64,000 nt of DNA from the NCBI GenBank assembly GCA_036253495.1, contig GCA_036253495.1_4125.1; one strand, written 5' to 3'. The stretch is from a phage. Below, piece after piece: positions 1,083 to 52,808 of this stretch (position 1 is its first letter; every line of letters starts with the position of its first letter). A model generated the notes under the pieces. It was not told the origin of the DNA, did no database searches, and was given only the letters and a program-made list of their open reading frames with translations. Position numbers and translations under genes: made by a program.

Positions 1083-2501
1083 ATGAGCATTTTAGCAATT
1101 CTGGAACAAATCAAAAAGACTTCAAGTACACTTGGTAAGAAAGCAATCCTTGAAGAAAACAAAAACAATGAAACACTCAAAAAAGTACTGAAATATACGC
1201 TAGACCCTACTATCGTAAGTGGCTATAAGAAGCTACCAGACGCTACTGACGTGTATCAACATATGACGTTAGATGAAGCTATTGATAAGCTAGAATGCAT
1301 CTATAAGCGTGGTGTGACGGGTAATACAGGGCGTGATTTCATTGCTTCAGTACTAGGTTCTGTTTCCGACGATGACCAGGAAGTTCTCCGTAAAATGCTC
1401 ACGAAGAACCTTGATTGTGGTATTCAGGAAAAGAACTGTAATGATGTATTCGGTAAAGGCTTCATTAAAGATGAACCTTATATGCGTTGTTCATTGATTG
1501 ACAAGAAAACTGCTAAGAACATCAACTTCAAAGATTATGGTTATGCAGTCGCTGAGCATAAATTAGATGGGATGTATATGAACCACGTTGTTATCAATGC
1601 ATCATTAACATCCACTTCCCGTAATGGTAAGATTTATGACTTCCTCGGTTGTCGTGATGCTGAAATGGCTGGCCTTGCTCATCATATCCAAAGTACAGAT
1701 GAACGTTTCAGTAGTGGTGTAGTCTTTATGGGTGAGGGTTTAGTACTGGATACTGATGGGGAAACTATTCTTCCACGTACAACTGGTAACGGCATCATTC
1801 AGAAAGCTGGTAAGGATACTATCACCCAAAACGAAGCAATGCGTACTGTATTTGTACTATGGGATGTAGTGCCATACGATGCATATTGTGATGGTATCTG
1901 GGATGTAAAACGTAAGGAACGTCGCGAGATTCTCGAAGGTGCAATCAATGCATTAGGTAGTGAATTCGTGCGTATGGTTGGATATCGTAAGGTGAAGGAT
2001 CTCAAAGAAGCCTTTGCTTACAACTCTGAACTCATGAGTTCAGGTGAAGAAGGTTCAGTACTGAAATGTGAAGATGGTATCTGGAAATCTCATACTTCTC
2101 CTAAGCAGTTGAAAATGAAATTGAAAATGCAACTGGACTTGCGTATTGTTGGTTTCAATGAAGGTGAAGGTAAGCGTAAAGGTATGCTTGGTTCTTTACA
2201 ACTCGAAAGTGCTTGTGGTACACTGAAAGTAAGTGTTGGAACAGGCATTAAAGAGAAAGACGCTGAATGGACATTTAAAACCATTTGGGAAAGAATGCAA
2301 GAACTCATTGGCAAAGTTGTTACAATAGAGTGCAATGACGTAGTATATGATAAGCGTACTGGTGAGCCATCACTATTTTTACCAGTGTTTATTGAATTTA
2401 GATTTGACAAAAACACGTGTGACGATTATACTCGTATTTTAGAAATTCGCGAGAGTGCAGTTGAAGTGTTCTCTAACAGTATTATTGAATCAATTTCGTA
2501 A
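1083..2501 (+). CDS. ATP-dependent DNA ligase (T4 gp30-like)
   Basis: 472 aa; adenylation motif KxDG (AEHKLDGMY); N-terminus resembles T4 DNA ligase as recalled from memory; SD AAGGGA upstream. Confidence 0.88.
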   Translation: MSILAILEQIKKTSSTLGKKAILEENKNNETLKKVLKYTLDPTIVSGYKKLPDATDVYQHMTLDEAIDKLECIYKRGVTGNTGRDFIASVLGSVSDDDQEVLRKMLTKNLDCGIQEKNCNDVFGKGFIKDEPYMRCSLIDKKTAKNINFKDYGYAVAEHKLDGMYMNHVVINASLTSTSRNGKIYDFLGCRDAEMAGLAHHIQSTDERFSSGVVFMGEGLVLDTDGETILPRTTGNGIIQKAGKDTITQNEAMRTVFVLWDVVPYDAYCDGIWDVKRKERREILEGAINALGSEFVRMVGYRKVKDLKEAFAYNSELMSSGEEGSVLKCEDGIWKSHTSPKQLKMKLKMQLDLRIVGFNEGEGKRKGMLGSLQLESACGTLKVSVGTGIKEKDAEWTFKTIWERMQELIGKVVTIECNDVVYDKRTGEPSLFLPVFIEFRFDKNTCDDYTRILEIRESAVEVFSNSIIESIS

Positions 2502-2515
2502 CGGATGATAATATC

Positions 2516-3592
2516 ATGATTGACAATGCTATTATACAAAGTGTGAATTTATTTTTATCAAGTGATGCATTGTCAATCTCTAATACTATTTGGAAAGAGA
2601 AATACAAATGGCTTCCAGAAAATTTTAGTTTTGATATGCTGGAAACTGATTCGTATAGTGAAAATAATAACAATATTCATGGTTTTGTCCGAACTGGTAA
2701 AAATGGATATACAAAAATGTATTTTCATAGTTGTGATGTTTGTAAACAAGATTCGTCATTGCACGGTCTTGGTATTTTCGCATCTGTACGAAGTAATTTG
2801 GAAAAAGGTATAGTTGCATGTGATTGTTCCATAACTTCAAAACTAACAAAATATCAATATATTGCTAAAATTTATAAAAAATGTTTGGAACTTGGATACG
2901 AATTTATTGGATTTAATGAGGATTGGGAATCAACACAGCCAAAAGGACTAATCCATCTAAAATTATCATGTAATATTCATGGATTATGGAATACAACAAC
3001 AATTGATAATTTACTGTTCCACTCTAAAGGTTGTAAGGAATGTGGGAGACGTAAAATCAGCCAAGCTAGAACAATTGGAGATGAATTCCATATAAATGAG
3101 TTTTTCAAAACAGGTAAATTTAGTAAAGGTAGTAAGTTTTGGCGTTCTGACCGTTTGAATACTTATGGTTACAAGAATTATTGGTTTTATGAATGTTCAG
3201 TATGTCATATGGTAGTTGAATCACAGATTGGTAACCTAAAGGATGGAAAAGTACCATGTTTATGTAATGGAAACATCCAACAACAATGCTATATAAATTT
3301 AGTACTTGACAATAATATTCCAATTGCATTAAAATATGGTATAGCAAACAACTTCACAACGAGAGAAAAATCTCAAAATAAGCATTCAATCTATGATATT
3401 GTAAACAGTGGTGTTTGGGAATTTGAAACAGTATCATTGTGTAAATCAGCAGAAGCGGAATGTAAGAGAATTTTCTCACCAGTACTTGAAGCTCGTGAAA
3501 TGAAAGATGGATATACGGAAACTACATCACCATTAGATATTGACAAAATCATTGAAATATATGAGAATTGGGGTGGTGTGCGAATAAAATAA
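2516..3592 (+). CDS. hypothetical Cys-rich protein with several CxxC/CxC motifs
   Basis: 358 aa ORF; repeated C-x2-C and HG-containing segments suggest zinc-ribbon modules; function unknown. Confidence 0.5.
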   Translation: MIDNAIIQSVNLFLSSDALSISNTIWKEKYKWLPENFSFDMLETDSYSENNNNIHGFVRTGKNGYTKMYFHSCDVCKQDSSLHGLGIFASVRSNLEKGIVACDCSITSKLTKYQYIAKIYKKCLELGYEFIGFNEDWESTQPKGLIHLKLSCNIHGLWNTTTIDNLLFHSKGCKECGRRKISQARTIGDEFHINEFFKTGKFSKGSKFWRSDRLNTYGYKNYWFYECSVCHMVVESQIGNLKDGKVPCLCNGNIQQQCYINLVLDNNIPIALKYGIANNFTTREKSQNKHSIYDIVNSGVWEFETVSLCKSAEAECKRIFSPVLEAREMKDGYTETTSPLDIDKIIEIYENWGGVRIK

Positions 3593-3604
3593 CTGGAGGT
3601 GATT

Positions 3605-11829: not shown

Positions 11830-11857
11830 TTAAAAAAAGGAGTCCGAAGACTCCTTA
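11830..11857 (-). terminator. intrinsic terminator (minus strand) downstream of 11868-12383
   Basis: Hairpin AAGGAGTC-CGAA-GACTCCTT followed on the minus strand by a U-run. Confidence 0.55.
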
Positions 11858-19690: not shown

Positions 19691-19700
19691 GTTAAACGTT

Positions 19701-20030
19701 ATGAGCAAAGTTGATGTTGATGTAGTTATTGGCTATATTGAAATTGAACAGTGTTGTATTGATACATTGATTGACACTCTTAATAAGTACCGTGCAGAGT
19801 ACAAGGGTAACATTAGTCTTTCACCGGACGGTGGTTACGGTGGATTCGATGGATACAATGTAATTTGGACACGAGAAGAAACGGATGAAGAATACAATAT
19901 CCGTTTGCAGTTAGAATCACAACGTCGCGAAGAAATTGAACGTCAAGAAATGAAACATTTAATGAACAAGAAATCATTAAGTGCTGAAGAGAAATCTAAA
20001 CTTCTAAAATATATCAAGGATTACATGTAA
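19701..20030 (+). CDS. hypothetical protein
   Basis: ATG at 19701 just after terminator; track ORF 19539 upstream part overlaps previous gene. Confidence 0.4.
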   Translation: MSKVDVDVVIGYIEIEQCCIDTLIDTLNKYRAEYKGNISLSPDGGYGGFDGYNVIWTREETDEEYNIRLQLESQRREEIERQEMKHLMNKKSLSAEEKSKLLKYIKDYM

Positions 20031-20677
20031 TGAAAAATGTAACTCAAGAAAAGATTCTGTATCACGCTAAACATAACGGTTCTTTCAATATTATTAGCCG
20101 AGAATACGTTGGTCATATGGCTAAGTTGATTGATAATTTACTGGAATTTGATTTCCTGAATTGGGAAACTAATGATCTTTGGTATGAATACGCGGGACAG
20201 CAATGGGAACGTGATTATGATAATGCAACACATTCATACACTATCACCAAAGCAGGTGAAGTTCGTTTAGCCATTATGCGTTGTGCATATGCTTACAAAA
20301 ATCACAAAGGTGAAGAAAAACATACTCGTAGAAATGAAGAGCTATTGCTTCTCATGGAATCAGCAAAAATTACAATGCATGATTTGTTCCACCACCCACG
20401 TTGGTATGAAAATCTAACCAAAGCAGAGTACAAAGCGTTGCGTTACATTGATGAACAGAACAAAACGCCAATTTTAGTAGATGAAAGTGACGGTGAACTA
20501 AGCCTCAAATGTGTATTTGACAATTCCAGTACTGAGAGCATTGCTGACATTTCAGTACAAATGGCACTTAAAGCTATGGAACTATTCAAGACGCAATACC
20601 AAGGTACAAATGCCGATGAAATTGAGCGTGAGTTCATTACACGCGTACAGATTGCATTAGCTAAGACCAAAACTTAA
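20030..20677 (+). CDS. hypothetical protein
   Basis: 215 aa, start overlaps upstream stop (TAATG). Confidence 0.45.
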   Translation: MKNVTQEKILYHAKHNGSFNIISREYVGHMAKLIDNLLEFDFLNWETNDLWYEYAGQQWERDYDNATHSYTITKAGEVRLAIMRCAYAYKNHKGEEKHTRRNEELLLLMESAKITMHDLFHHPRWYENLTKAEYKALRYIDEQNKTPILVDESDGELSLKCVFDNSSTESIADISVQMALKAMELFKTQYQGTNADEIEREFITRVQIALAKTKT

Positions 20678-23554: not shown

Positions 23555-24496
23555 ATGCAAATAGATAAATTATATACGGACGTAACTAACTTCCTCAACC
23601 AGAGTAACGCTGATTTAACAAATGAAAATGCAAATAAAGACGCTAAATGTGTTAATACACATCGTGATTTATTGGCAGGTATTCTTTCTAAACATTATTC
23701 CCAAGATGTGATTCCTGATGAATTGATGAAGTGGCATAATGAAGGTTACGGTCATATTCATGATTTAGACTATTACATTAGCCCATTAACAAACTGTTGT
23801 TTAGTTAATTATCCTGATATGCTTGCTAATGGCTTCATGATTGGTTGTGCCAAGATTGAAGAACCAAAAAGCTTTGGGGTAGCTTGTACAGTACTAACAC
23901 AGATTGTTCAGGCTGTGGCAAGTTCACAGTACGGTGGTCAGTCGTTGGCTCACATTGACACTGGCCTTGCACCATATGTACAAAAGTCATGGGATAAACT
24001 TCTAGAAAAACAAAAGAAATACAATCTTAGTACTGAATTCATCGAAGATGAGTTGCGTAAGGAAGTTTATGACGGTTGTCAAACAATTCTATATCAAACA
24101 AACTCAATGATCAGTACTAATGGTCAGGCTGCGTTCATTTCTTTGAGTTTAGGATTAGGTACATCTAAATTTGAAAAACTAATCACTGAACAATATTTGA
24201 AAGTACATGAAAATGGACTAGGTAAAGATAAGATTACTCCAGTATTTCCTAAAGTAATATTCTTTCTTCAGGATGGAATTAATATGAATACCAATGATAC
24301 TAACTATGATCTTAAACAGTTAGCTATGCGTTGTGCATCAAAAAGAATCTATCCAGACTTTGTTTCTGTACCATTGAACCATAAAGTAACTGGAAGTACC
24401 AGTACTGCTGTTACTCCTATGGGATGCAGAAGCTTCTTAGGTAAATGGGAAGATGAAAATGGCAACGAACAGTACAATGGCCGTTTCAATTTGGGT
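23555..24496 (+). CDS. nrdD: anaerobic ribonucleoside-triphosphate reductase NrdD, exon 1
   Basis: N-terminal NrdD-like region ending ...PMGCRSFLGKWEDENGNEQYNGRFNLG, matching the E. coli NrdD segment PMGCRSFLG...NLG recalled from memory; exon end placed at T24496. Confidence 0.72.
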
Positions 24497-25666
24497 AGAC
24501 ATACATGCCCCATTGCTGAGTGATCAGTAATTGCAAACACGTTAACATGCTGGAACCCCCTAAAGCCATAAACACTACAACGCAATCTTAATAGATAAAC
24601 GTGAATGTTACGAGAGTAGAAAAAAGTTTTATGGATATATAATAAGTTGTAAATCATATTATATGTACAATGGGAAATCAGCAGCCAAGCCATCATTAAT
24701 ATAATGGTGGAAGGTTCAACGAGTATAATACGTGACTCTAATATTAAAACTTCCATAAATAATATTTTATGGAGGATATATAATGAGAAAAGGAAGTATA
24801 TATAAAATAGAATGTATAGTAACTAATAAAGTTTATATTGGACAAACCGTTTTATATCCACCGATGAAAAGATGGGTGGAACACTGCCAAAACAATGATG
24901 AAAAATCATGTATTAGTAAAGCTATTAAAAAATTTGGTTTTGAAAATTTCACATTTCAAATTTTAAAAACTAATATTGATTTAAATAATCTTAATGATGA
25001 AGAAATAAAATATATTGAAATTTATGATAGTTATAAGAATGGTTACAACTCAACATTAGGTGGTCACCAAACCTTTAATGGAAGTAAAATAACTGAACTT
25101 GATGCTATAAAAATTATAGAATATATTAAATCATATAAAGATCTTTCATTCGTAGAAATAGCAAAAACTTTAAATGTTCCATACGGCTGTGTAAGTGATA
25201 TAAATTGTGGCGAAACTTGGTATCAAATAAATGAAACATACCCTATTAGAGATAACAAAAGAAATAAGATTGAAGATAATATAGATTCAATTTATGAGTT
25301 ATTGAGAAATGGTGTTTCTAGTATAGAAATTGCAAAAATATATAATGTTTCAAATGTCACCATTTGTAACGTTAATAATGGAACAATCTATCGAAACGAA
25401 TCAGTTGAATACCCAATTTTTAAACCACAAAATTCATCAAAACGACATTCTATTGAAATAGTTTCTAAGATTATTGATATGTTAATTAATACAGATAAAA
25501 ATTATTCTGAAATTGCAAAATGTTTAAATGTAGGAAGAAAAACTGTTGCAAATATCAATAACGGTTCTGGATATAAAGAACTATCAAATGAACTTGGTTA
25601 TATATCATTTCCTCTTCGTTAGAGTATGGTGTACTCTAATCCTTCATGAAAGTGAAGGTACAAATG
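24497..25666 (+). mobile_element. group I intron interrupting nrdD, carrying a GIY-YIG homing endonuclease ORF
   Basis: Exon ends in U; P-like ATGCTGGAA (24546), Q-like AATCAGCAGCC (24675), R-like GTTCAACGAG (24713); GACTCTAA (24735) pairs with TTAGAGT (25621) as P7; P9-like hairpin CCTTCA-TGAAAG-TGAAGG; terminal G at 25666; spliced product reads GRFNLG|VVSINLP in frame. Confidence 0.65.
24783..25622 (+). CDS. GIY-YIG homing endonuclease (intron-encoded)
   Basis: N-terminal IYKIECIVTNKVYIGQT (GIY-x10-YIG); SD GGAGG upstream; located inside nrdD intron. Confidence 0.8.
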   Translation: MRKGSIYKIECIVTNKVYIGQTVLYPPMKRWVEHCQNNDEKSCISKAIKKFGFENFTFQILKTNIDLNNLNDEEIKYIEIYDSYKNGYNSTLGGHQTFNGSKITELDAIKIIEYIKSYKDLSFVEIAKTLNVPYGCVSDINCGETWYQINETYPIRDNKRNKIEDNIDSIYELLRNGVSSIEIAKIYNVSNVTICNVNNGTIYRNESVEYPIFKPQNSSKRHSIEIVSKIIDMLINTDKNYSEIAKCLNVGRKTVANINNGSGYKELSNELGYISFPLR

Positions 25667-26530
25667 GTTGTCTCAATCAACCTACCGCTAATTGCTCTTG
25701 AAAGCACTACTGATGGTGATTTCTTTGATAAGATAGATGAGCATATGAACATTGCATACAGAGCACAGATGAACCGTGTAGAGCGTTTAAAAGGTACTAA
25801 GGCTAAACAGAACCCGATTCTGTTCATGGAAGGTGCTCTTGCACGTCTTGATGCAGAAGAAACTATTGACAAACTCTTCTACGATGGTTATGCTAGTATT
25901 AGTATTGGTTATGTAGGATTAGTTGAATGTTCAGAGATTTTGACTGGTTCAATCAGTAAAGAGTTCTGTATGTCAGTACTGAATTATATGAAAGTCAAAT
26001 GCGATGAGTTCAAAAAAGAGAGTAACATAGCTTTTAGTCTATATGGAACCCCAGCAGAGTCACTTTGCTACAAATTTGCACGTTGCATCGAATCTAAGTA
26101 CCCTTCAGTACTAAAACGTGATTACATCACAAATTCCTTCCATCAACCAGTATGGGTAGAAAGTTCACCATTTGATAAGTGGAGTTACGAAGAGGGCTTT
26201 GCTTACCTCAGCAATGGAGGAAACATCAGTTATGTGGAATCACCCAACCTAAGTAACAATATTCAAGCACTTGAGACTTTAGTCAATTACGCTTACACAA
26301 AGATTCCATATTTTGGCATCAACCAGCCAATTGACCAGTGTTTCGAGTGTGGGTATAAAGGTGAGTTCAGTGTAGATAAACACGGTTTTCATTGTCCAGT
26401 ATGTGATAATCGCAATGAGAAGACAATCTCAGTGATTCGTCGTGTTTCTGGATATTTGGGGAACCCATCGTCTCGTGGATTCAACAAAGGCAAACAACAA
26501 GAATGTTGTGAGCGTATACAACACAAATAA
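25667..26530 (+). CDS. nrdD: anaerobic ribonucleoside-triphosphate reductase NrdD, exon 2
   Basis: VVSINLPLIALE...; C-terminal Zn ribbon CFECG...CPVCDN and glycyl-radical motif RRVSGYLG. Confidence 0.75.
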   Translation, partial: VVSINLPLIALESTTDGDFFDKIDEHMNIAYRAQMNRVERLKGTKAKQNPILFMEGALARLDAEETIDKLFYDGYASISIGYVGLVECSEILTGSISKEFCMSVLNYMKVKCDEFKKESNIAFSLYGTPAESLCYKFARCIESKYPSVLKRDYITNSFHQPVWVESSPFDKWSYEEGFAYLSNGGNISYVESPNLSNNIQALETLVNYAYTKIPYFGINQPIDQCFECGYKGEFSVDKHGFHCPVCDNRNEKTISVIRRVSGYLGNPSSRGFNKGKQQECCERIQHK

Positions 26531-35648: not shown

Positions 35649-36886
35649 ATAATAACAAATTTCTTGAACAAACAATTGTGAAGCACTTAGCAGGTTCACA
35701 AGCGTATGGAACCAGTACACCTGAAAGTGATACGGATTATCGTGGTATTTTTCTTGCTAACAAAGAGTTCATTCTGACACCTTTTTATAATGTAAAAGAA
35801 GTTTCTGATTCAAGAGAAGAAGATACTAAATTCTATGAACTAAACCAGTACTTAAGACTATACACAGAGGCTAACCCAAATATCCTTGAATCACTATGGG
35901 TTGATCCTGAACACATCGTAGAAAGTACTGAAATCTATGATTATCTACGTACATTCAATCAACAATTACTTAGTTCTAAGATCGCATTCTCTTATACCGG
36001 TTATGCATATAATCAGGTTAAACGTATGTCCAATCACCACGGGTGGATGGATAAAGAGCGTATTGCTGAAAAACGTCTAAATGAAATCTTAGAAGATTTT
36101 CCTGTAGATGAAACTTTAGCATGGATGTATGAAAACTTCCCACACTATTTGGTAGAACGTTTAGATACTTCTAAACTACATCCATTTAATGCTAAGAAAA
36201 TAGATTTTGAAAAATACATGCGTGATACTTCATTGCAGTTAGTTTCGACTCATCCGTTGAAACAGTATCATTTTGTACGTTTAGTACATAATTACAGTAC
36301 TGATAAAGTACTAGACCGTGATTTCAACTTATTGGATTATAACAATGGGTACGAATTAATTCATTACGGTGAAAATATCTTTGGTGTTATTATCAATCCT
36401 AATGAAAGTACAATTAACGCTGATGGTTCTTTACGTTATTTCAACAAAGAACGCAGTACTGAAGAATTGAAAGTGCGACCTGAACTCATTGTTAAATTCA
36501 ATGAAAAAGAATACAGTGAGAACAGTGAGAACCGTAAAAGTTATCACAAATGGAAAGAGAATCGTAATGCTAAACGTGCAATTCTTGAATCCAAACACGG
36601 CTACGATTGCAAACATGCTATGCATACGATCAGACTTTTGAATACAGCCGAAGAAGCATTACAAAGCGGTATTATCCTTGTTAAACGTCCTGATGCTGAT
36701 ATGCTAATGGATATCCGCAACGGTAAATGGAAGTATGAAGAAGTCATGGATTATTTCAATGAAAAGGTTGACTATATCCGCAATGTGGTGTATCCTAAGT
36801 CAGTTCTACCAAAGAAACCAAACATTCAACTAGCTGCAAAAGTTCTAATCGATATTCGAGAAATGCAGTGGTATGGTAAAAAATAA
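35645..36886 (+). CDS. nucleotidyltransferase-fold protein (Pol-beta superfamily)
   Basis: Classic motif HLAGSQAYGTSTPESDTDYRGIF (GS-x10-DxD); 413 aa with large C-terminal extension. Confidence 0.55.
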   Translation: MNNNKFLEQTIVKHLAGSQAYGTSTPESDTDYRGIFLANKEFILTPFYNVKEVSDSREEDTKFYELNQYLRLYTEANPNILESLWVDPEHIVESTEIYDYLRTFNQQLLSSKIAFSYTGYAYNQVKRMSNHHGWMDKERIAEKRLNEILEDFPVDETLAWMYENFPHYLVERLDTSKLHPFNAKKIDFEKYMRDTSLQLVSTHPLKQYHFVRLVHNYSTDKVLDRDFNLLDYNNGYELIHYGENIFGVIINPNESTINADGSLRYFNKERSTEELKVRPELIVKFNEKEYSENSENRKSYHKWKENRNAKRAILESKHGYDCKHAMHTIRLLNTAEEALQSGIILVKRPDADMLMDIRNGKWKYEEVMDYFNEKVDYIRNVVYPKSVLPKKPNIQLAAKVLIDIREMQWYGKK

Positions 36887-36895
36887 GAGGATTAT

Positions 36896-37321
36896 ATGCT
36901 GAATTCAACAATTATTGATGCACTACGTGTACTGAATCGCGAAGTTAGCCGTATCCATAAAAGTACTGATCGTTATAAAGTAATGCATGAAATTAAACTA
37001 GAATTAGAAGCTATCAATAAGGGTGAATGGTTCCTTGAACCAGAATACCGTACACGTGGACCAACTGACGTTGAGAAAGCAATTGCAAAATTCATTTCTG
37101 GACGTTATGGTGATGTATCAGAGGCAGATGTACTGATGAATTTACATTTAACCTCCTTAGAAATTGAAGAAAAATTCAAATTTGATTCACTGGACTGGGT
37201 AGAAATGATCATGGAACTTGAAGATGAATTTAAGGTTGAGATCGAAGATAAGTATGAATCTGGAGATACCAGAATCGTGCATCTCGTTGAACATGTACAA
37301 ACAATGATCGATAAACGCTAA
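36896..37321 (+). CDS. hypothetical protein
   Basis: 141 aa ORF. Confidence 0.45.
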   Translation: MLNSTIIDALRVLNREVSRIHKSTDRYKVMHEIKLELEAINKGEWFLEPEYRTRGPTDVEKAIAKFISGRYGDVSEADVLMNLHLTSLEIEEKFKFDSLDWVEMIMELEDEFKVEIEDKYESGDTRIVHLVEHVQTMIDKR

Positions 37322-37741: not shown

Positions 37742-38052
37742 AATACATATTAACATTCTTGATTACTTTTATGTTTATCACTGGGTGTTCTAATAAGGTT
37801 CCAGTTCAAGCGTCACCAATAATCACCCAGGAAATCTTATTAGAACGATGCGAAGAAGATACACCAATTCCTAAAAAAATTGTTGTTGACTCACATGGTA
37901 ATAGAGGATATGCTGGTGATGAAATTCTTAACGTTCTGACGCGTTGGGATTCCATGTACAATGAATGTGCACTGAGATATGATGCACTAATTGATACAAT
38001 TCGCAAACTCCAAGACCAAAATATTCGTGTTAACATAAAAGTTAAGGAATAG
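37738..38052 (+). CDS. o-spanin-like lipoprotein
   Basis: Signal peptide with lipobox ITGCS; start overlaps upstream stop. Confidence 0.45.
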   Translation: MKYILTFLITFMFITGCSNKVPVQASPIITQEILLERCEEDTPIPKKIVVDSHGNRGYAGDEILNVLTRWDSMYNECALRYDALIDTIRKLQDQNIRVNIKVKE

Positions 38053-38053
38053 T

Positions 38054-38665
38054 ATGTCTAAATATCATGTTTATTATGTAACCAAATTGAGTTTACTAGA
38101 TGAACTCAATCATACTAGTACCAAAATGAAACGTTATACTTATAATGGTATTACTTTCAGATACTTTCCACAAAAAGTACTAACATTCGTTAAGAATTGT
38201 AAGTGCGTTGCTTGTGGCATCGAGGCTACAGAAGTTCGAATCGAACGTTCTAACTGTAGTGATCCGGTATATGGTAAACCGCATTTAAATGTGTATGCAG
38301 TATGTGGTCTTTATGAAGTTATGATGACTGTAGATCATAATCATCTTGCATCTAAAGGTGGTGCTGATTTGGAGTCAAACTTCAATACTATGTGTGCGAG
38401 ATGTAATCAGTTGCGTTCAAATAAAACTGAAACAGTTGATGAATTCCTTGAGAAAGTCAAAAGCCGAAATCTACTTGAAGAACATATGAATCGTTATTTC
38501 AATAAGATTGAGAAGGAAAGTAAACGTCCTACACCAGAAATGCTCGAAGAACGTAGATTGCGTCAAGAGCTATGGGATAACGATCATCTGTGGCATGTTC
38601 GTGAGTACGGGCGACACATGAAAGCATTAAAAAAGGCACAAAAGCTGTTGGATAAACATGAGTAA
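38054..38665 (+). CDS. HNH endonuclease
   Basis: CKCVACG ... DHNH ... CARCNQ arrangement typical of HNH nucleases. Confidence 0.55.
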   Translation: MSKYHVYYVTKLSLLDELNHTSTKMKRYTYNGITFRYFPQKVLTFVKNCKCVACGIEATEVRIERSNCSDPVYGKPHLNVYAVCGLYEVMMTVDHNHLASKGGADLESNFNTMCARCNQLRSNKTETVDEFLEKVKSRNLLEEHMNRYFNKIEKESKRPTPEMLEERRLRQELWDNDHLWHVREYGRHMKALKKAQKLLDKHE

Positions 38666-38677
38666 TATGTTATAATA

Positions 38678-38706
38678 GGGACTTGAGAAATCAAGTCCTT
38701 TTTTAA
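38678..38706 (+). terminator. intrinsic terminator (GGACTTGA-GAAA-TCAAGTCC then T6)
   Basis: Perfect 8-bp stem plus U-tract. Confidence 0.65.
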
Positions 38707-38718
38707 TGGAGAAAATAA

Positions 38719-39075
38719 ATGAAATCAAAAATCTTTTTACCACAGTTAATGTGGCATCTTGCAGAGTTAGATGAAGATGATGTGTATACTGACTATGGTA
38801 CATGGGATGACAGTACTGAAACCTTTGGTCCAGATGTGCAGTACAAAATCATTTACAATGAAAGTAAAGGGCATAGACGATTTACTGAAGAATTTGATCT
38901 TGTTTTTCTTGACATGAACGAGAACAAGTATTATCATTGTACGTATGAACGAGGTTTAACAGAATATCGACCACAACGACCATTCGAGTATGAAACGGAT
39001 GGTGTTAAGTGCAATGAAGTTTCTGTTACCAGAGAAGAAATTATCACTTATAGAACTTTGTGGAAATATGTGTAA
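38719..39075 (+). CDS. hypothetical protein
   Basis: 118 aa ORF. Confidence 0.45.
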   Translation: MKSKIFLPQLMWHLAELDEDDVYTDYGTWDDSTETFGPDVQYKIIYNESKGHRRFTEEFDLVFLDMNENKYYHCTYERGLTEYRPQRPFEYETDGVKCNEVSVTREEIITYRTLWKYV

Positions 39076-39317
39076 TGCTTAAAGATTTAGATTTTTCAAA
39101 CTTAGAAATTGTTAGTGCTGTGAAAAATATCTCTGACATGGGAGACGAAAAGACAGTACTGTTAACTATTACATTTGTCAAAGAAGAAGATAGTTATTTA
39201 CATCTTACAGGTATTGAAGAACTAATTCATAAAACTAATCTACAAGATAATGGGAAGTTTATTAAGCTTCAGGCTTCCTATACGAAAAAAAACGTCAAAT
39301 TTTGTAGACCTAAATAG
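39075..39317 (+). CDS. hypothetical protein (possibly continues to 39474 via shift at A8 run)
   Basis: ATG overlapping upstream stop; A8 homopolymer at 39285-39292 joins this frame to ORF 39250-39474. Confidence 0.4.
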   Translation: MLKDLDFSNLEIVSAVKNISDMGDEKTVLLTITFVKEEDSYLHLTGIEELIHKTNLQDNGKFIKLQASYTKKNVKFCRPK

Positions 39318-39479
39318 TGTAGTCAAGGTGGTATTCAATCACCCTGAACAAAAGTACAGAAATGTGTCACGCAATGAGACAGATGCCAGTACTCTACAGC
39401 TTCTTCAGGATATTGAGTTCATTGAAACAGTATTTGAACGAAGCAGCAAAGAATTGAAAAAAGTTTATATGTAATTGGG

Positions 39480-40194
39480 ACAATACTTTATATTGTGCTA
39501 TAATTATATTGTAATGGAAAATGTCAGTGGACGTTTTAACAACGGACAAGAAGAACCTACTTCTCTTGAAAATGTAAAGGATAGATGAGCCTTCCCACTG
39601 AGGCGATGAGCAAAAGAAACCCGTTAGTACCATCCAAGTGCATTCATACAAACGCGAAATAAGACACGGATCACACGGCGACACGGCTCAATAAAGAACT
39701 CCGATAAGCATACAGAGAGTTCCTCGATAGATGTATAAGGATCGCACCTTACCAGATTTGCTAAGGGAGTTTTACTTAAAACAAGCGGTCAATTTTTCTA
39801 CGGGAAAGTTGCACCCAAAATTTGAGTAAAACGAGTACTGAATTGATCGAATAGTTCCAGTACTTTAGTGCAGGGGATGAAAATACCTGCGACCGTTGCA
39901 TATGACTGCGATAGAGAGAAACAGAGCAACCCGCTTTCGTTCTCCAAAAATTGGACACCCTTGATCCGTCCAAAATATGGAGAAATTCGCAATTCGATAA
40001 ATTCCGATGCCATCAGCGTCAAAATCAAGAACCTTAATTGGTTCTTTTTTAATATCATTCCCCTGCGGGGGGATGAAAATGTCCTCAACAAATCCCGTCA
40101 ATCTTTAAAAGTACAATACAATATTAATTAATATGAATGAGTGAGTTATCGTAGATAACGAAACGAATTCTTGAGTTACGAGAGAACGAAGTGA
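39480..40194. other. ORF-poor region with internal repeats and hairpins (candidate ncRNA or regulatory region)
   Basis: No convincing ORF; only mutually overlapping short ORFs on both strands; GGGGATGAAAAT twice, ACACGG three times, GATGAGC twice; terminator-like hairpin at 40023-40050. Confidence 0.3.
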
Positions 40195-40611
40195 ATGAGT
40201 AACGCAACGAATATTAAAAATTCATCTGATTTAACCAAAGAATTGTTTAAAAAGTTTTTTGAGTATCAAATCAATGAAGAGCACGGAATTAAACAGAATT
40301 ACATAAGTACAATAAAAACTAATAATATCCGTACTGAAATCTATGATAGTGTAATTGAATTTATTAATGCATTGAGTACTGAAAGACCTATAGTAGTTTT
40401 GTTTTTTAAACGAGATTATCCAGTACAAGTCAACAGGAATGTTCATTTCATTACAGAAAATGATTTAAGTACTTACACAACGAGTTCTATTAGGAATTGT
40501 ATACTGATAGTATGTGATGACTCCGAGTATTTTAGTAAAGTTGTATGGGATAGAAGACGTAATTCAGTAATAAGAGATATGAATCCCGAATTTACATTTC
40601 TGATCAAATAA
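40195..40611 (+). CDS. hypothetical protein
   Basis: 138 aa ORF. Confidence 0.4.
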   Translation: MSNATNIKNSSDLTKELFKKFFEYQINEEHGIKQNYISTIKTNNIRTEIYDSVIEFINALSTERPIVVLFFKRDYPVQVNRNVHFITENDLSTYTTSSIRNCILIVCDDSEYFSKVVWDRRRNSVIRDMNPEFTFLIK

Positions 40612-40622
40612 ATAGACATAGA

Positions 40623-41084
40623 ATGACTCCCTGGAGAGATTTTATGGAAAATATTAACGACTTGCGACATGTTATGGACTTCATTGGCTGTACTGAAGAA
40701 GACAGTGCTTATGATGAAGTACTATTGACATTTATTGAAAACAGCATTATACTACCAGCAATTGCACATAGCTGGCATTTACAAAGTAAACACTACACAA
40801 AACATCTACAATTAGATGAGTTGTATAAAGAGTTACCAGAATATGTCGATGCGTTCATTGAAGGCATTATGAACACTCGTGGTGCTTTACAAATTGGTAC
40901 TGGACACAGTTATAAGTTCACACCAATTGAACAGTGTATTCCGATTCTTGAAGAATACTGTGAACAATGTAAGTACGTTCATGCTATGCTTGAAGAAGCT
41001 GAAGACTATGGCAGTACTAATACCCTTGAAGATATAATGAGTTTCATTGAGGGTACTTTATATAAACTTAAGTATCTTGAATAA
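40623..41084 (+). CDS. hypothetical protein
   Basis: 153 aa ORF. Confidence 0.45.
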   Translation: MTPWRDFMENINDLRHVMDFIGCTEEDSAYDEVLLTFIENSIILPAIAHSWHLQSKHYTKHLQLDELYKELPEYVDAFIEGIMNTRGALQIGTGHSYKFTPIEQCIPILEEYCEQCKYVHAMLEEAEDYGSTNTLEDIMSFIEGTLYKLKYLE

Positions 41085-41125: not shown

Positions 41126-41139
41126 TATAAAAAAAGAGG

Positions 41140-46289: not shown

Positions 46290-47216
46290 TTGACAATAGC
46301 GATACAAACACCTAAAACTAAGACAGCTATAGGCTTATTAGTTTCACTTGTTATCATCGCTGCGTTTGGATTTTATGGTTTTTCTCAACATGATCGTGCA
46401 TCATCATCGGGCGAAAGTCAGGTGCACAATTTAAAACCGCAAGTTACACAAATTCAAAAGCAGGAATTACCTAAAGGGTATACACCTAAAGTAGTTCCAG
46501 GCAGCGAGAAACATTATACTGTTGAATACGGTGATAGTTATCATTCGATAGCTAAGAAGTTTAAACCGCATAATGTGTTGTTTGAAGATTACGTTACAGT
46601 ATTGAAGAATATCAATCTTAATGCTAAACTTCATACATCGCAGGGTATCTTTATCCCAACAAAAGAGGATTTGAAAGACGTACTGTTACCTGATGTGGTA
46701 GTACTTTTCGATTATAATGATCCTGAAATAGTAGCACACATCAAAGAAGCTGAAGGTTCAATTGAATTTCAGTCCAAGAACAAAAGACGTTTACTTGGGG
46801 GAAAAGTTGGAGTTCCTTTCTACAATTCAAAATTTCATCCTTATAAGGATATGAAAGGTAACTACACAATCGCATATGGTCACTACCTCGGTCCACGTGA
46901 ATCAGATGCTATAAAATATAGGAATGGTATCACAGTTACTGAAGCCCATAACTTGTTACTCACTGATATGAAAAGAATCAATGATGAATTGATTCTATTA
47001 TTGAAGAAGAAAAATGCAACATATCTCACAGTTGAACAACAAATAATACTATTTGATATGGCATTTACTTTAGGTATTAATAAGCTCAATACTTTTAATA
47101 AGTTATGGAAAAGTGTTGAAAAAAGGAATGCAAAAAAGTTTAAAAAAGAAATTAAGAATTCACTATGGTATAGACAAGTTGGGAAACGTGGGGAATTATT
47201 AGTTAATAATTTGTAA
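46290..47216 (+). CDS. lysozyme-like (T4 lysozyme fold) protein with N-terminal TM anchor, TTG start
   Basis: N-terminal hydrophobic helix; C-terminal region (GNYTIAYGHYLG ... LWYRQVGKRGELLVNNL) resembles T4 lysozyme as recalled; strong SD AAGGAGG before TTG. Confidence 0.5.
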   Translation: MTIAIQTPKTKTAIGLLVSLVIIAAFGFYGFSQHDRASSSGESQVHNLKPQVTQIQKQELPKGYTPKVVPGSEKHYTVEYGDSYHSIAKKFKPHNVLFEDYVTVLKNINLNAKLHTSQGIFIPTKEDLKDVLLPDVVVLFDYNDPEIVAHIKEAEGSIEFQSKNKRRLLGGKVGVPFYNSKFHPYKDMKGNYTIAYGHYLGPRESDAIKYRNGITVTEAHNLLLTDMKRINDELILLLKKKNATYLTVEQQIILFDMAFTLGINKLNTFNKLWKSVEKRNAKKFKKEIKNSLWYRQVGKRGELLVNNL

Positions 47217-47220
47217 TTAT

Positions 47221-47245
47221 AGGGATGTTTAACATCCCTTTTTAA
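47221..47245 (+). terminator. intrinsic terminator (GGGATGTT-T-AACATCCC then TTTTT)
   Basis: Perfect stem plus U-tract. Confidence 0.6.
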
Positions 47246-47260
47246 TCGGAGTTTTAGATT

Positions 47261-47893
47261 ATGCTATATAATATTGGTATTATGGACGTACCTGGTGATG
47301 GTAACATAAAATCTCCTGATAATAAAATATATAAAACATGGTGTTCAATCTTTGTTAGATGCTATTCGCCAATATCACTAAAAAAACGCCCAACGTATGA
47401 ATTAACCGAAGTATGTGATGAATGGAAACTATATTCAAACTTCAAAAAATGGTATATAAGTAATTATATAGAAGGTTACTTTCTTGATAAAGATATTATT
47501 GATGGTACTTCTAATATTTACTCACCATATACTTGCTCGTTTGTTCCAAACATTATAAATTGTTGTATTTTGGATGGGAATTCAAAAAACTCTAATCTAC
47601 CAATTGGTGTTCATTATAGACCGAAAGGGAAAGATATGGTCAACGAATTTTCGAATCCATATCAAGCAAGACTCTGGAAATATAAAAAACGTGTATCACT
47701 CGGATGTTATCCTACACCATATGATGCACATAAAGCGTGGCAATTTGGTAAGAAAGAATACTTATTAGAATTGATTAACGACTATAGTGATAAAGTTACC
47801 CCTGAAGTTGTTGTCGGTTTACAACGTAGAATTGATATACTAACCGATGATATAAAAAAATGTAGAATTACAAATTCAATCAGTAAAATATAG
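47261..47893 (+). CDS. putative HNH-type homing endonuclease-like protein
   Basis: N-terminal W-x2-I-x2-RC and VCDEW..F..F..W pattern typical of phage HNH endonuclease N-terminal modules. Confidence 0.4.
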   Translation: MLYNIGIMDVPGDGNIKSPDNKIYKTWCSIFVRCYSPISLKKRPTYELTEVCDEWKLYSNFKKWYISNYIEGYFLDKDIIDGTSNIYSPYTCSFVPNIINCCILDGNSKNSNLPIGVHYRPKGKDMVNEFSNPYQARLWKYKKRVSLGCYPTPYDAHKAWQFGKKEYLLELINDYSDKVTPEVVVGLQRRIDILTDDIKKCRITNSISKI

Positions 47894-47898
47894 AGAGG

Positions 47899-48237
47899 TT
47901 GTATATGCTAAATCTAGTTATTCAAGGTAATGTTGATATTACTCCAGCAATCCATGACGCAATTCATCAAGAAGCAAACACTCTAAATAAATTTAGTGAT
48001 TCTTCAGTACTGAATATTGGTGTTCATGTGAAAAAAGAGCATAAGACACAGTACGCAGTAACTTTAACATCAGGTGGTAAGTCTGTTACTGCCGATGATG
48101 CAGATTTATACAAGGCGATTGTCGATTCATTCGAAAAAATGGAAACTGTATTCAGTAAAGACAAAAGCATTAAATTGCACCGCCGAAACCATCCAGACCG
48201 TCCAGTTGTAGTTGATGTAACTGACGAAGAAGAGTAA
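47899..48237 (+). CDS. ribosome hibernation promoting factor (HPF/RaiA-family) homolog
   Basis: 112 aa; MLNLVIQGNVDITPAIHDAIHQ... and ...ADDADLYKAIVDSFEKME match HPF/YfiA architecture and length. Confidence 0.6.
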   Translation: MYMLNLVIQGNVDITPAIHDAIHQEANTLNKFSDSSVLNIGVHVKKEHKTQYAVTLTSGGKSVTADDADLYKAIVDSFEKMETVFSKDKSIKLHRRNHPDRPVVVDVTDEEE

Positions 48238-52328: not shown

Positions 52329-52808
52329 ATGATACATGAACATAGCGGCAATCTGTTTGATTTATTCAGTACTGTTACTGATGATCAAACCGCGTTGCAT
52401 ATAATCGCTCATGGTTGTAATGCACAGGGTAAGATGGGTTCGGGTTTTGCAAAAGAATTAAGAAAGCGTCACCAATTGGCATATGATGTGTATCATACAC
52501 GTTATACCAATCAGAATGGTTTGAAATTGGGTGAAGTTGTCTATGCAGCACCAAATAATAACTTAATTATTGCAAACTGCATTACACAAGAGTATTATGG
52601 TAATGATGGTAAGAAGTATGTAAGTTATGATGCGATTGACCTTGCATTTAACTCGATGAATGAATTCATTAAAAATGAACCACAAGAGATCCATGTACAC
52701 TTCCCGAAAATTGGAGCCGATTTAGGCGGTGGTAACTGGAACGTTATCAAAGAAATCATTGACCACAGGCTGGTTAATGCTGAAAAACATTTATATATTC
52801 TCAAATAA
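52329..52808 (+). CDS. macro-domain-like protein (tentative)
   Basis: TALHIIAHGCNAQGKMGSGFAKEL loosely resembles the macro-domain ADP-ribose-binding segment. Confidence 0.4.
   Translation: MIHEHSGNLFDLFSTVTDDQTALHIIAHGCNAQGKMGSGFAKELRKRHQLAYDVYHTRYTNQNGLKLGEVVYAAPNNNLIIANCITQEYYGNDGKKYVSYDAIDLAFNSMNEFIKNEPQEIHVHFPKIGADLGGGNWNVIKEIIDHRLVNAEKHLYILK

What the first reader, a model, noticed from the sequence alone, without database searches (positions are those of the whole stretch)
39075..39474. A8 homopolymer joins two overlapping ORFs: possible slippage or frameshift
ORF 39075-39317 ends 9 codons after an A8 run at 39285-39292. ORF 39250-39474 in the +1 frame starts only 12 codons before the run and continues 60 codons after it. 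A one-nucleotide change in run length would produce a single 132-aa protein. Runs of seven or more A residues are classic sites for transcriptional slippage or sequencing error.
Basis: seen in the sequence. Interest (0 to 1): 0.4.

Follow-up and report, generated by a model that had tools for sequence, protein, structure and literature searches.

The report
One phage gene split by extra A
The two overlapping ORFs are one conserved jumbo-phage gene of unknown function (DUF7325), broken because an A7 run reads A8 in this sequence only, so it is an ordinary homopolymer error or recent mutation rather than a programmed frameshift.

Summary

Removing one A gives a 132-aa protein. It matches Pfam DUF7325 end to end (E = 7e-58) and is 100% identical to a protein on another phage contig.

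The window is an Asteriusvirus-like jumbo coliphage, 99.3% identical to phage A4 across this locus.
- All 14 close relatives have A7 and an intact gene.
- More distant relatives have A6, A5 or no run, and all but one have a single ORF.
- The exception is a record flagged as unverified, broken at two T-runs.

So this is one gene with a private +1 A. Nothing supports programmed recoding.
- Neither the run nor the two-frame layout is conserved.
- There is no downstream RNA structure.
- The −1 frame stops after four codons.
- Published reporter data show no deletion slippage by E. coli RNA polymerase on the A runs tested (up to 8).

Assembly error and a real recent mutation are about equally likely. 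Only the reads can decide.

Interest is low. Separately, the 600 nt just downstream (about 39511-40110) encode a well-supported, multi-copy structured RNA with no Rfam match.

The parts
39075..39474 (+). One interrupted gene for a DUF7325 protein (132 aa when the run is A7).
   Evidence: The A7 fusion matches PF24011 full length (E = 7e-58) and PHROG 9016. It is 100% identical to P0001 and 98.5% identical to A4_510.
39075..39317 (+). The reading frame as it stands: 72 authentic N-terminal residues followed by 8 out-of-frame residues (NVKFCRPK) and TAG.
   Evidence: It is identical to NCBI protein MED6699472.1 (VWH97_07030, E. coli O157 assembly, 352,052-bp contig).
39285..39292 (+). The A8 homopolymer. 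It is A7 in all 14 close relatives.
39293..39474 (+). The C-terminal 60 codons of the gene, now in the +1 frame. The mechanical ORF 39250-39474 begins at an internal ATG with no Shine-Dalgarno sequence.
   Evidence: This stretch has no differences from A4. Family-invariant residues K84, V85, Y94, R99, D112, F115, F120, R122, L127, K128 and Y131 lie here. The 74-aa product is not in the protein collection.
38719..39075 (+). The upstream gene (118 aa, PHROG 6343). Its stop overlaps the start of the DUF7325 gene (TAATG), so it is probably an operon partner.
   Evidence: The same gene pair is found in all relatives inspected.
38649..38700 (+). A promoter-like site (TGGATA-N16-TG-TATAAT) and a terminator-like hairpin between the HNH endonuclease gene and the two-gene unit.
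   Evidence: Relatives annotate a terminator at the same place.
39250..39281 (+). An 11-bp RNA hairpin ending 3 nt before the run. Judged to be a by-product of the coding sequence rather than a signal.
   Evidence: z = −2.45, matched or beaten by 3 of 200 shuffles. It is present in relatives with an in-frame A7, absent from the 121Q clade, and broken without compensation in L016.
41129..41135 (+). The second private +1 A of this sequence (A7 here, A6 in 5 of 5 relatives). It is intergenic, upstream of a ribosome-binding site.

Best explanation
This is a single gene for a conserved 132-aa DUF7325 protein of Rak2-like jumbo phages. In this sequence only, an A7 run has become A8, which shifts the frame after codon 72. 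As written, the gene gives an 80-aa product that lacks three strands and two helices of a single compact domain, so it is probably non-functional. The extra A is non-programmed. It is either a homopolymer-length error in the source assembly or a very recent replication-slippage mutation in this isolate. I put the two at roughly 50:50, and the available sequence cannot separate them. If the A8 is real, only trace amounts of full-length protein would be expected, from RNA polymerase dropping an A or from tRNA-Lys slipping +1 on AAA-AAA-A.

Shown: the gene is one gene, the insertion is private to this sequence, and recoding signals are absent. Inferred: loss of function, and the low level of rescue.
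For: - The fused ORF matches PF24011 and PHROG 9016 end to end.
- An identical intact allele exists (P0001, 100% identity).
- A7 with an intact ORF is found in 14 of 14 A4-clade loci from NCBI, ENA and Logan assemblies.
- 69 of 70 phage records match as a single tblastn piece.
- Both halves of the family are conserved, and the break lies in its most variable stretch.
- The AlphaFold model has pLDDT 88 and pTM 0.80 and forms one α/β unit, with the break at the end of strand 63-72. It agrees with the BFVD model of the GAP32 homolog at TM 0.92.
- Downstream of the run the gene has no differences from A4, so there has been no decay.
- Across about 58 kb aligned to A4, this is the only frame-disrupting indel inside a gene body.
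- A second private +1 A sits 1.8 kb away (41129). In that 5-kb block the window has no private substitutions. Private homopolymer indels against private substitutions are 2:5 in the window and 2-5:697 in the pooled relatives, Fisher p = 0.0005-0.002.
- The same gene in the unverified CMSTMSU record is broken by T6→T5 and T5→T4, showing how assembly errors split it.
Against: - The choice between error and mutation is unresolved. A4 itself has two private homopolymer changes (13186, 33596) over the same span, so the window's two or three are not clearly abnormal.
- Only 1 of the window's 2-3 private homopolymer changes is coding, although 78 of 96 runs of 6 or more bases are coding. That pattern is slightly more like selection-filtered real mutations.
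- The rest of the window shows no sign of a poor assembly.
- Function is unknown. There is no PDB fold match, and the 'structural protein' label in some records could not be traced to evidence. Loss of function is therefore inferred from structure and conservation only.
Confidence: 0.9

Rival explanations
1. Programmed recoding. The A8 is real, and the phage makes the 132-aa protein (perhaps alongside the 80-aa form) by transcriptional slippage on the run or by +1 ribosomal frameshifting. The hairpin just upstream might help, as in Roseiflexus IS630.
For: - The run is at the lower edge of lengths where slippage is known. Some IS elements appear to use A8, and an A8 in human apoB gives about 10% rescue (PMC1088944).
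- An 11-bp hairpin ends 3 nt upstream of the run (z = −2.45). Nascent hairpins next to a slippery motif can stimulate single-base deletion (PMC5009743).
- tRNA-Lys on AAA AAA A can re-pair in the +1 frame, which would give exactly the wild-type sequence (read directly from the sequence).
Against: - The run is not conserved (A5, A6, A7, or none) and the two-frame layout is found nowhere else.
- The hairpin coexists with an in-frame A7 in 14 genomes, where stimulated slippage would be harmful. It is absent from the 121Q clade and broken without compensation in L016.
- Restoring the frame needs −1 A or +2 A. E. coli RNA polymerase gave no deletion rescue on the poly(A) runs examined (up to 8) and no detectable activity on runs shorter than A8 (PMC6260861). 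Selection against runs is typically evident from 9 nt (PMC1088944).
- Rak2-like phages appear to use the host polymerase together with phage sigma factors (PMC5259590; for the relative PA5oct, PMC7318152).
- There is no downstream structure (z = −1.0 and +0.35), and no Shine-Dalgarno-like stimulator or slow A-site codon. A −1 shift meets TAG after 4 codons.
Confidence: 0.04
2. A contingency (phase-variable) locus. The A7 run of the A4 clade is a hypermutable switch that turns this gene on and off in phage populations, and the window caught the off state.
For: - The long run is specific to this clade. It arose from CAAAAAT by two substitutions.
- It lies in the most variable part of the protein, where Lys-Lys is tolerated.
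- One of 15 sampled genomes is out of frame.
Against: - 14 of 15 genomes are in frame with the same length. True contingency loci show several lengths among isolates.
- A7 is short for a switch.
- A8 runs also occur in frame in other genes of the window without variation.
- No other length variant (A6 or A9) is seen in the clade.
Confidence: 0.04
3. Two genuine separate small genes that happen to overlap.
For: Both ORFs are open as written. NCBI's pipeline named the 80-aa product as a protein.
Against: - The two together reconstitute one Pfam family member over its full length.
- No homolog is split here.
- ORF2's ATG has no Shine-Dalgarno sequence and lies inside ORF1.
- The 74-aa product is absent from a 15-billion-protein collection.
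- The model is a single domain.
Confidence: 0.01

Closest known systems
Homopolymer-length indels that split genes in assemblies or isolates (sequencing error or replication slippage)
   Same: A single-base change in an A/T run, private to one record, that breaks an otherwise universally intact conserved gene. The same gene in phage CMSTMSU (an UNVERIFIED record) is split by two T-run deletions.
   Different: The rest of this window looks clean. This is the only frame-breaking indel in about 58 kb compared with A4, so a real mutation cannot be excluded.
Non-programmed rescue of frameshifted genes by slippage on A/T runs (E. coli orthologs in PMC1088944; Citrobacter rodentium tssM, PMC4256274; HSV thymidine kinase G7 'savior' indel, PMC5009743)
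   Same: An indel inside a homopolymer in a gene that is intact in relatives. If the A8 is real, some full-length protein could arise from polymerase or ribosome slippage at the same run.
   Different: The documented bacterial cases mostly involve runs of 9 or more, or T runs. Here the needed event is a deletion on an A8, which E. coli RNA polymerase did not perform detectably in reporters (PMC6260861). No expression data exist for this gene.
Programmed transcriptional slippage (Thermus thermophilus dnaX A9, Shigella mxiE T9, IS-element A9/A8, Roseiflexus IS630 hairpin + T5C5)
   Same: A homopolymer at the junction of two overlapping frames, with a hairpin just upstream of the run.
   Different: In those systems the run and the two-frame layout are conserved among homologs. 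Here neither is.
Pfam DUF7325 (PF24011) / PHROG 9016
   Same: The repaired protein is a full-length, high-scoring member.
   Different: In this sequence the reading frame is interrupted after residue 72. The family has no known function and no solved structural analog.

Membership tests
Pfam DUF7325 (PF24011) | Full-length match to the family profile above the gathering score. | tested here: met
   The A7-repaired product scores 194.9 bits against a cut-off of 27, residues 1-132 on profile positions 1-131 of 131. PHROG 9016 matches at E = 1.2e-55.
Pfam DUF7325 (PF24011) | Encoded as one uninterrupted ORF of about 129-132 aa. | tested here: not met
   The window is split after codon 72 by the A8. 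69 of 70 phage records and 14 of 14 close contigs are uninterrupted.
Programmed transcriptional slippage site | The slippery homopolymer is conserved at the same position among homologs. | tested here: not met
   A8 in the window only, A7 in the A4 clade, A6 in phAPEC6, A5 in 121Q and Turkey3, and no run in RaK2 or GAP32.
Programmed transcriptional slippage site | The two-frame ORF layout is conserved, so that slippage is needed for the long product. | tested here: not met
   All other copies are in frame.
Programmed transcriptional slippage site | Run length and type are sufficient for the transcribing polymerase. | tested here: inconclusive
   From the literature only. E. coli RNA polymerase gave no deletion rescue on the poly(A) runs examined (up to 8) (PMC6260861), and selection against runs is evident from 9 nt (PMC1088944). 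The polymerase that transcribes this gene was not determined here.
Programmed transcriptional slippage site | Heterogeneous run length in the mRNA. | not testable with these tools
   No RNA data are available.
Programmed ribosomal frameshift (+1 prfB-like, or −1 dnaX-like) | A shift site with a stimulator (slow or stop A-site codon plus an upstream Shine-Dalgarno-like sequence for +1; a downstream structure for −1), leading into the long ORF. | tested here: not met
   The A-site codon is AAC and there is no Shine-Dalgarno-like sequence upstream. There is no significant downstream structure (z = −1.0 and +0.35). The −1 frame ends at TAG after 4 codons, whereas ORF2 is in the +1 frame.
Phase-variable contingency locus | Several run lengths (on and off states) among related isolates. 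| tested here: not met
   14 genomes have A7 and 1 has A8. No other length occurs in the clade.
Homopolymer sequencing or assembly error | The change is private to one assembly, and that assembly shows an excess of private homopolymer changes. | tested here: inconclusive
   The change is private, and a second private +1 A lies at 41129. Fisher p = 0.0005-0.002 against pooled relatives. However, A4 also has two private homopolymer changes.
Homopolymer sequencing or assembly error | Reads disagree with the consensus at the run. | not testable with these tools

The most novel reading that the evidence does not exclude
The A8 is real, and this isolate expresses both a truncated 80-aa form and a full-length 132-aa DUF7325 protein. 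This would happen through hairpin-assisted single-A deletion by RNA polymerase (hairpin 39250-39281, 3 nt upstream of the run) or through +1 slippage of tRNA-Lys. It would be a newly arisen, not yet conserved recoding event in a jumbo phage.
Probability: 0.03. Interest if true: 0.4.

Novelty: already known. Interest (0 to 1): 0.07.

Why it matters
It matters little biologically. The practical point is annotation: 39075-39474 should be read as one frameshifted DUF7325 gene, not as two small genes or a recoding site. The source assembly should be checked at 39285 and 41129.

If the A8 proves real, it would show that this otherwise universally conserved jumbo-phage gene can be lost, or reduced to trace expression, in a viable isolate. 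That would be a small clue to a protein family with no known function.

Tried and rejected
- Exact-pattern scans for the allele with A7 to A10 in viral contigs, metagenome contigs and genome contigs found nothing. A megablast search of complete E. coli genomes also found nothing. Population data therefore came only from the protein-indexed contigs.
- The look-up of encoding contigs could not return the source contig for the 80-aa product.
- The 'structural protein' label in 121Q, Ecwhy_1 and ph0011 could not be traced. The main text of the phAPEC6 virion-proteome paper does not mention gp308.
- I first read the private-indel to private-substitution ratio as good evidence for assembly error. 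I softened this after finding that A4 has two private homopolymer changes of its own, and that the window-private 52811 indel adjoins a divergent recombinant cassette.
- I considered the upstream hairpin as a slippage stimulator and rejected it on comparative grounds.
- −1 frameshifting is rejected because the −1 frame stops after 4 codons.

Full report
**Observation.** The window reads ...GCTTCCTATACG-AAAAAAAA-CGTCAAATTTTG..., with the A8 run at 39285-39292. The first ORF starts at ATG 39075, which overlaps the stop of the upstream gene as TAATG. It ends at TAG 39315-39317 and encodes 80 aa. The second ORF (39250-39474, 74 aa) is in the +1 frame. Removing one A, or adding two, yields one 132-aa ORF. 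An A8 run is not in itself remarkable here. The window is 35% G+C and holds three A8 runs, against 18.2 ± 5.6 in dinucleotide-preserving shuffles, so such runs are depleted. At least one other A8 (33920) lies in frame inside a gene and is identical in A4 and L006.

**What the locus is.** The window is a jumbo myovirus of the 121Q/PBECO4 (Asteriusvirus, Rak2-like) group. Over 38000-40700 it is 99.3% identical to Escherichia phage A4 and about 78% identical to 121Q and its relatives. In A4, 121Q and Turkey3 the corresponding gene is one 399-nt ORF. A4 has A7 at the site, and 121Q and Turkey3 have CAAAAAT. Apart from two substitutions upstream of the run, the window's gene differs from A4's only by the extra A, and the 182 nt after the run have no differences at all. 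The A7-repaired protein matches Pfam DUF7325 (PF24011) over its whole length (194.9 bits, cut-off 27) and PHROG 9016. A tblastn search of 50,697 phage records finds it in 70 Rak2-like phages, 69 of them as a single uninterrupted piece. The exception, CMSTMSU, is an UNVERIFIED record whose copy carries two single-base deletions, both in T-runs. It also returned an 80-aa protein identical to the window's ORF1, NCBI MED6699472.1 (VWH97_07030, 'E. coli O157', 352,052-bp contig), which is presumably the source of the window.

**Population view.** I retrieved DNA for 14 loci of the A4 clade: A4 itself, four NCBI E. coli-assembly contigs, and ENA and Logan assemblies, 96-99.6% identical to the window. 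All 14 have A7 and only the window has A8. A census of 261 comparable homopolymers of 5 or more bases confirmed this. It also showed a second window-private +1 A at 41129, intergenic, with A7 in the window against A6 in 5 of 5 relatives. Across the genus the run is A5 (121Q), A6 (phAPEC6), A7 (A4 clade) and A8 (window). In RaK2 and GAP32 there is no run.

**The protein.** Both halves of the family are conserved. Invariant residues after the break are K84, V85, Y94, R99, D112, F115, F120, R122, L127, K128 and Y131, and the break lies in the most variable stretch of the alignment. AlphaFold2 on the 22-sequence alignment gives pLDDT 88.4 and pTM 0.80. The model is one compact α/β unit with strands 10-22, 25-36, 63-72, 83-88, 93-98 and 128-131 and helices 47-58, 101-106 and 109-122. 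The break falls at the end of strand 63-72. The 80-aa product would therefore lack three strands and two helices of what looks like a single domain, and is probably non-functional (inference). The model agrees with the independent BFVD model of the GAP32 homolog (TM 0.92). It has no significant match among solved structures, so function remains unknown. The gene is translationally coupled (TAATG) to an upstream 118-aa gene (PHROG 6343). The pair sits behind a promoter-like site and terminator-like hairpin at 38649-38700.

**Is it programmed?** The evidence says no.
- Neither the run nor the two-frame layout is conserved.
- ORF2 is in the +1 frame, so restoring it needs the loss of one A or the gain of two in the mRNA, or a +1 ribosomal shift.
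- A −1 shift on A AAA AAC runs into TAG after four codons.
- There is no significant RNA structure downstream of the run (z = −1.0 and +0.35). There is also no Shine-Dalgarno-like element upstream and no slow or stop codon in the A site.
- An 11-bp hairpin ends 3 nt before the run (z = −2.45), which recalls hairpin-stimulated slippage in Roseiflexus IS630 (PMC5009743). But it is present in all the in-frame A7 genomes, where stimulated slippage would be harmful. It is absent from the 121Q clade and broken without compensation in L016.
- In out-of-frame GFP reporters, E. coli RNA polymerase showed no detectable activity on A runs shorter than 8 and no deletion-type rescue on any poly(A) run tested (PMC6260861). 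In many bacteria, selection against runs becomes evident at 9 nt (PMC1088944).
- Rak2-like phages are described as redirecting the host polymerase with phage sigma factors (PMC5259590). The relative PA5oct relies on the host polymerase (PMC7318152).

If the A8 is real, at most trace full-length protein is expected. That would be comparable to 'savior indel' cases (PMC5009743) rather than to a recoding device.

**Error or real mutation?**

For error:
- In a 5-kb seven-genome alignment around the site, the window has no private substitutions but two private indels, both +1 A (39285 and 41129). Six relatives together have 259 private substitutions and no ±1 homopolymer change.
- Pooling a second, 14-kb ten-genome block gives 2 homopolymer indels to 5 substitutions in the window, against 2-5 to 697 in the relatives (Fisher p = 0.0005-0.002).

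Against over-reading this:
- A third apparent private change (52811) adjoins a divergent recombinant cassette and is probably natural.
- A4 itself has two private homopolymer changes (13186 and 33596, both harmless, at or after stop codons) over the same span.
- Other genomes vary at 38699, 45488, 54586 and 55596.
- The window shows no other frame-breaking indel in about 58 kb aligned to A4.
- Only 1 of its 2-3 private homopolymer changes is coding, although 78 of 96 runs of 6 or more bases are coding.

I therefore leave the two at about even odds. Only the reads can decide.

**Verdict.** Programmed slippage or frameshifting is not supported. This is an ordinary homopolymer indel in a known (DUF) family, so interest is low.

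**Side finding.** The 720 nt after the gene (39475-40194) have no credible ORF but are more conserved than the flanking genes. A promoter-like site with an extended −10 (39475-39504) precedes them, and a hairpin plus T-run lies at 40027-40046.
- RNAalifold on seven Asteriusvirus sequences predicts 152 pairs, 27 kept through changes on both sides and 2 with a broken pair.
- The element occurs at 239 places in 72 phage records, which is 3-5 copies per genome, in all Rak2-like genera. The copies lie in unannotated 700-900-nt gaps with different neighbours. There are none in plasmids.
- On a three-genus alignment, 97.6% of cells pair, against 88.1% in shuffles (0 of 500 reach it). 27 pairs change on both sides, against 2-5 when partners are slid.
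- Conserved G-U pairs put the RNA on the + strand.
- Rfam 15 has no match, either at gathering thresholds or at E ≤ 1.
- I found no description of it in the papers searched.

Noticed in passing
window 39475-40120 (+ strand): promoter-like site 39475-39504; RNA about 39511-40110; internal or terminal hairpin plus T-run 40027-40052; GC-rich hairpin CCCCTGCGGGG just after it: A large (about 550-600 nt), strongly conserved structured RNA with no Rfam match lies right after the DUF7325 gene. It occurs 3-5 times per genome in 72 Rak2-like jumbo phages of several genera, always in unannotated gaps. Covariation is strong: 27 of 97 pairs are kept through changes on both sides, 97.6% of cells pair, 0 of 500 shuffles reach this, and slid controls give 2-5. 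Some relatives annotate a short minus-strand ORF there (A4_511, 121Q_516), which is probably spurious..
   Followed up: partly
window 41129-41135: A second +1 A private to this sequence (A7 against A6 in 5 of 5 relatives), intergenic and just upstream of a ribosome-binding site. It bears on whether the source assembly miscalls homopolymers..
   Followed up: yes
window 11832-11838: Another +1 A relative to A4 (A7 against A6), intergenic. No third genome covers it, so the direction of change is unknown..
   Followed up: partly
window 52376-52724 (gene 52329-52808, macro-domain protein in A4) and the adjoining 52811: A sharply divergent patch holding 92 of the window's 97 private substitutions in a 14-kb block that is otherwise nearly identical to nine relatives. 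It looks like a recombinant gene cassette..
   Followed up: partly
window 36885-36917, against A4 119,525-123,121 and L006 5530-7809: A variable cassette. A4 carries about 3.6 kb with two tail-fibre-like genes (A4_503, A4_504) that the window lacks. L006 instead has a 759-aa RlaP-domain protein where the window has 413 aa. Other stretches that do not align with A4 are 2492-3594, 24451-26529 and 47179-47904..
   Followed up: no
loci L006, L014, L015, L016 and the presumed source contig (VWH97): Complete ~350-360-kb genomes of this lytic-type jumbo phage appear as single contigs inside at least five NCBI 'Escherichia coli' isolate assemblies, and in several SRA-derived assemblies. This suggests a carrier state or pseudolysogeny, or culture contamination. 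No copy is found in complete RefSeq E. coli genomes..
   Followed up: no
L009 (Escherichia phage CMSTMSU, MH494197) 601-994: The only other broken copy of this gene has T6→T5 and T5→T4 deletions. The record is flagged UNVERIFIED and has 767 annotated features against about 600 in relatives, so the genome probably carries many homopolymer errors..
   Followed up: yes
window-wide: Runs of 8 or more A/T are strongly depleted (3 observed against 18 ± 5.6 expected from shuffles). This is consistent with selection against long homopolymers in a genome that is about 92% coding..
   Followed up: partly
window 20484 (gene 19698-20348 region in A4 numbering, A4_480): A window-private 3-nt in-frame deletion (TGT) relative to A4, L023 and L024..
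   Followed up: no
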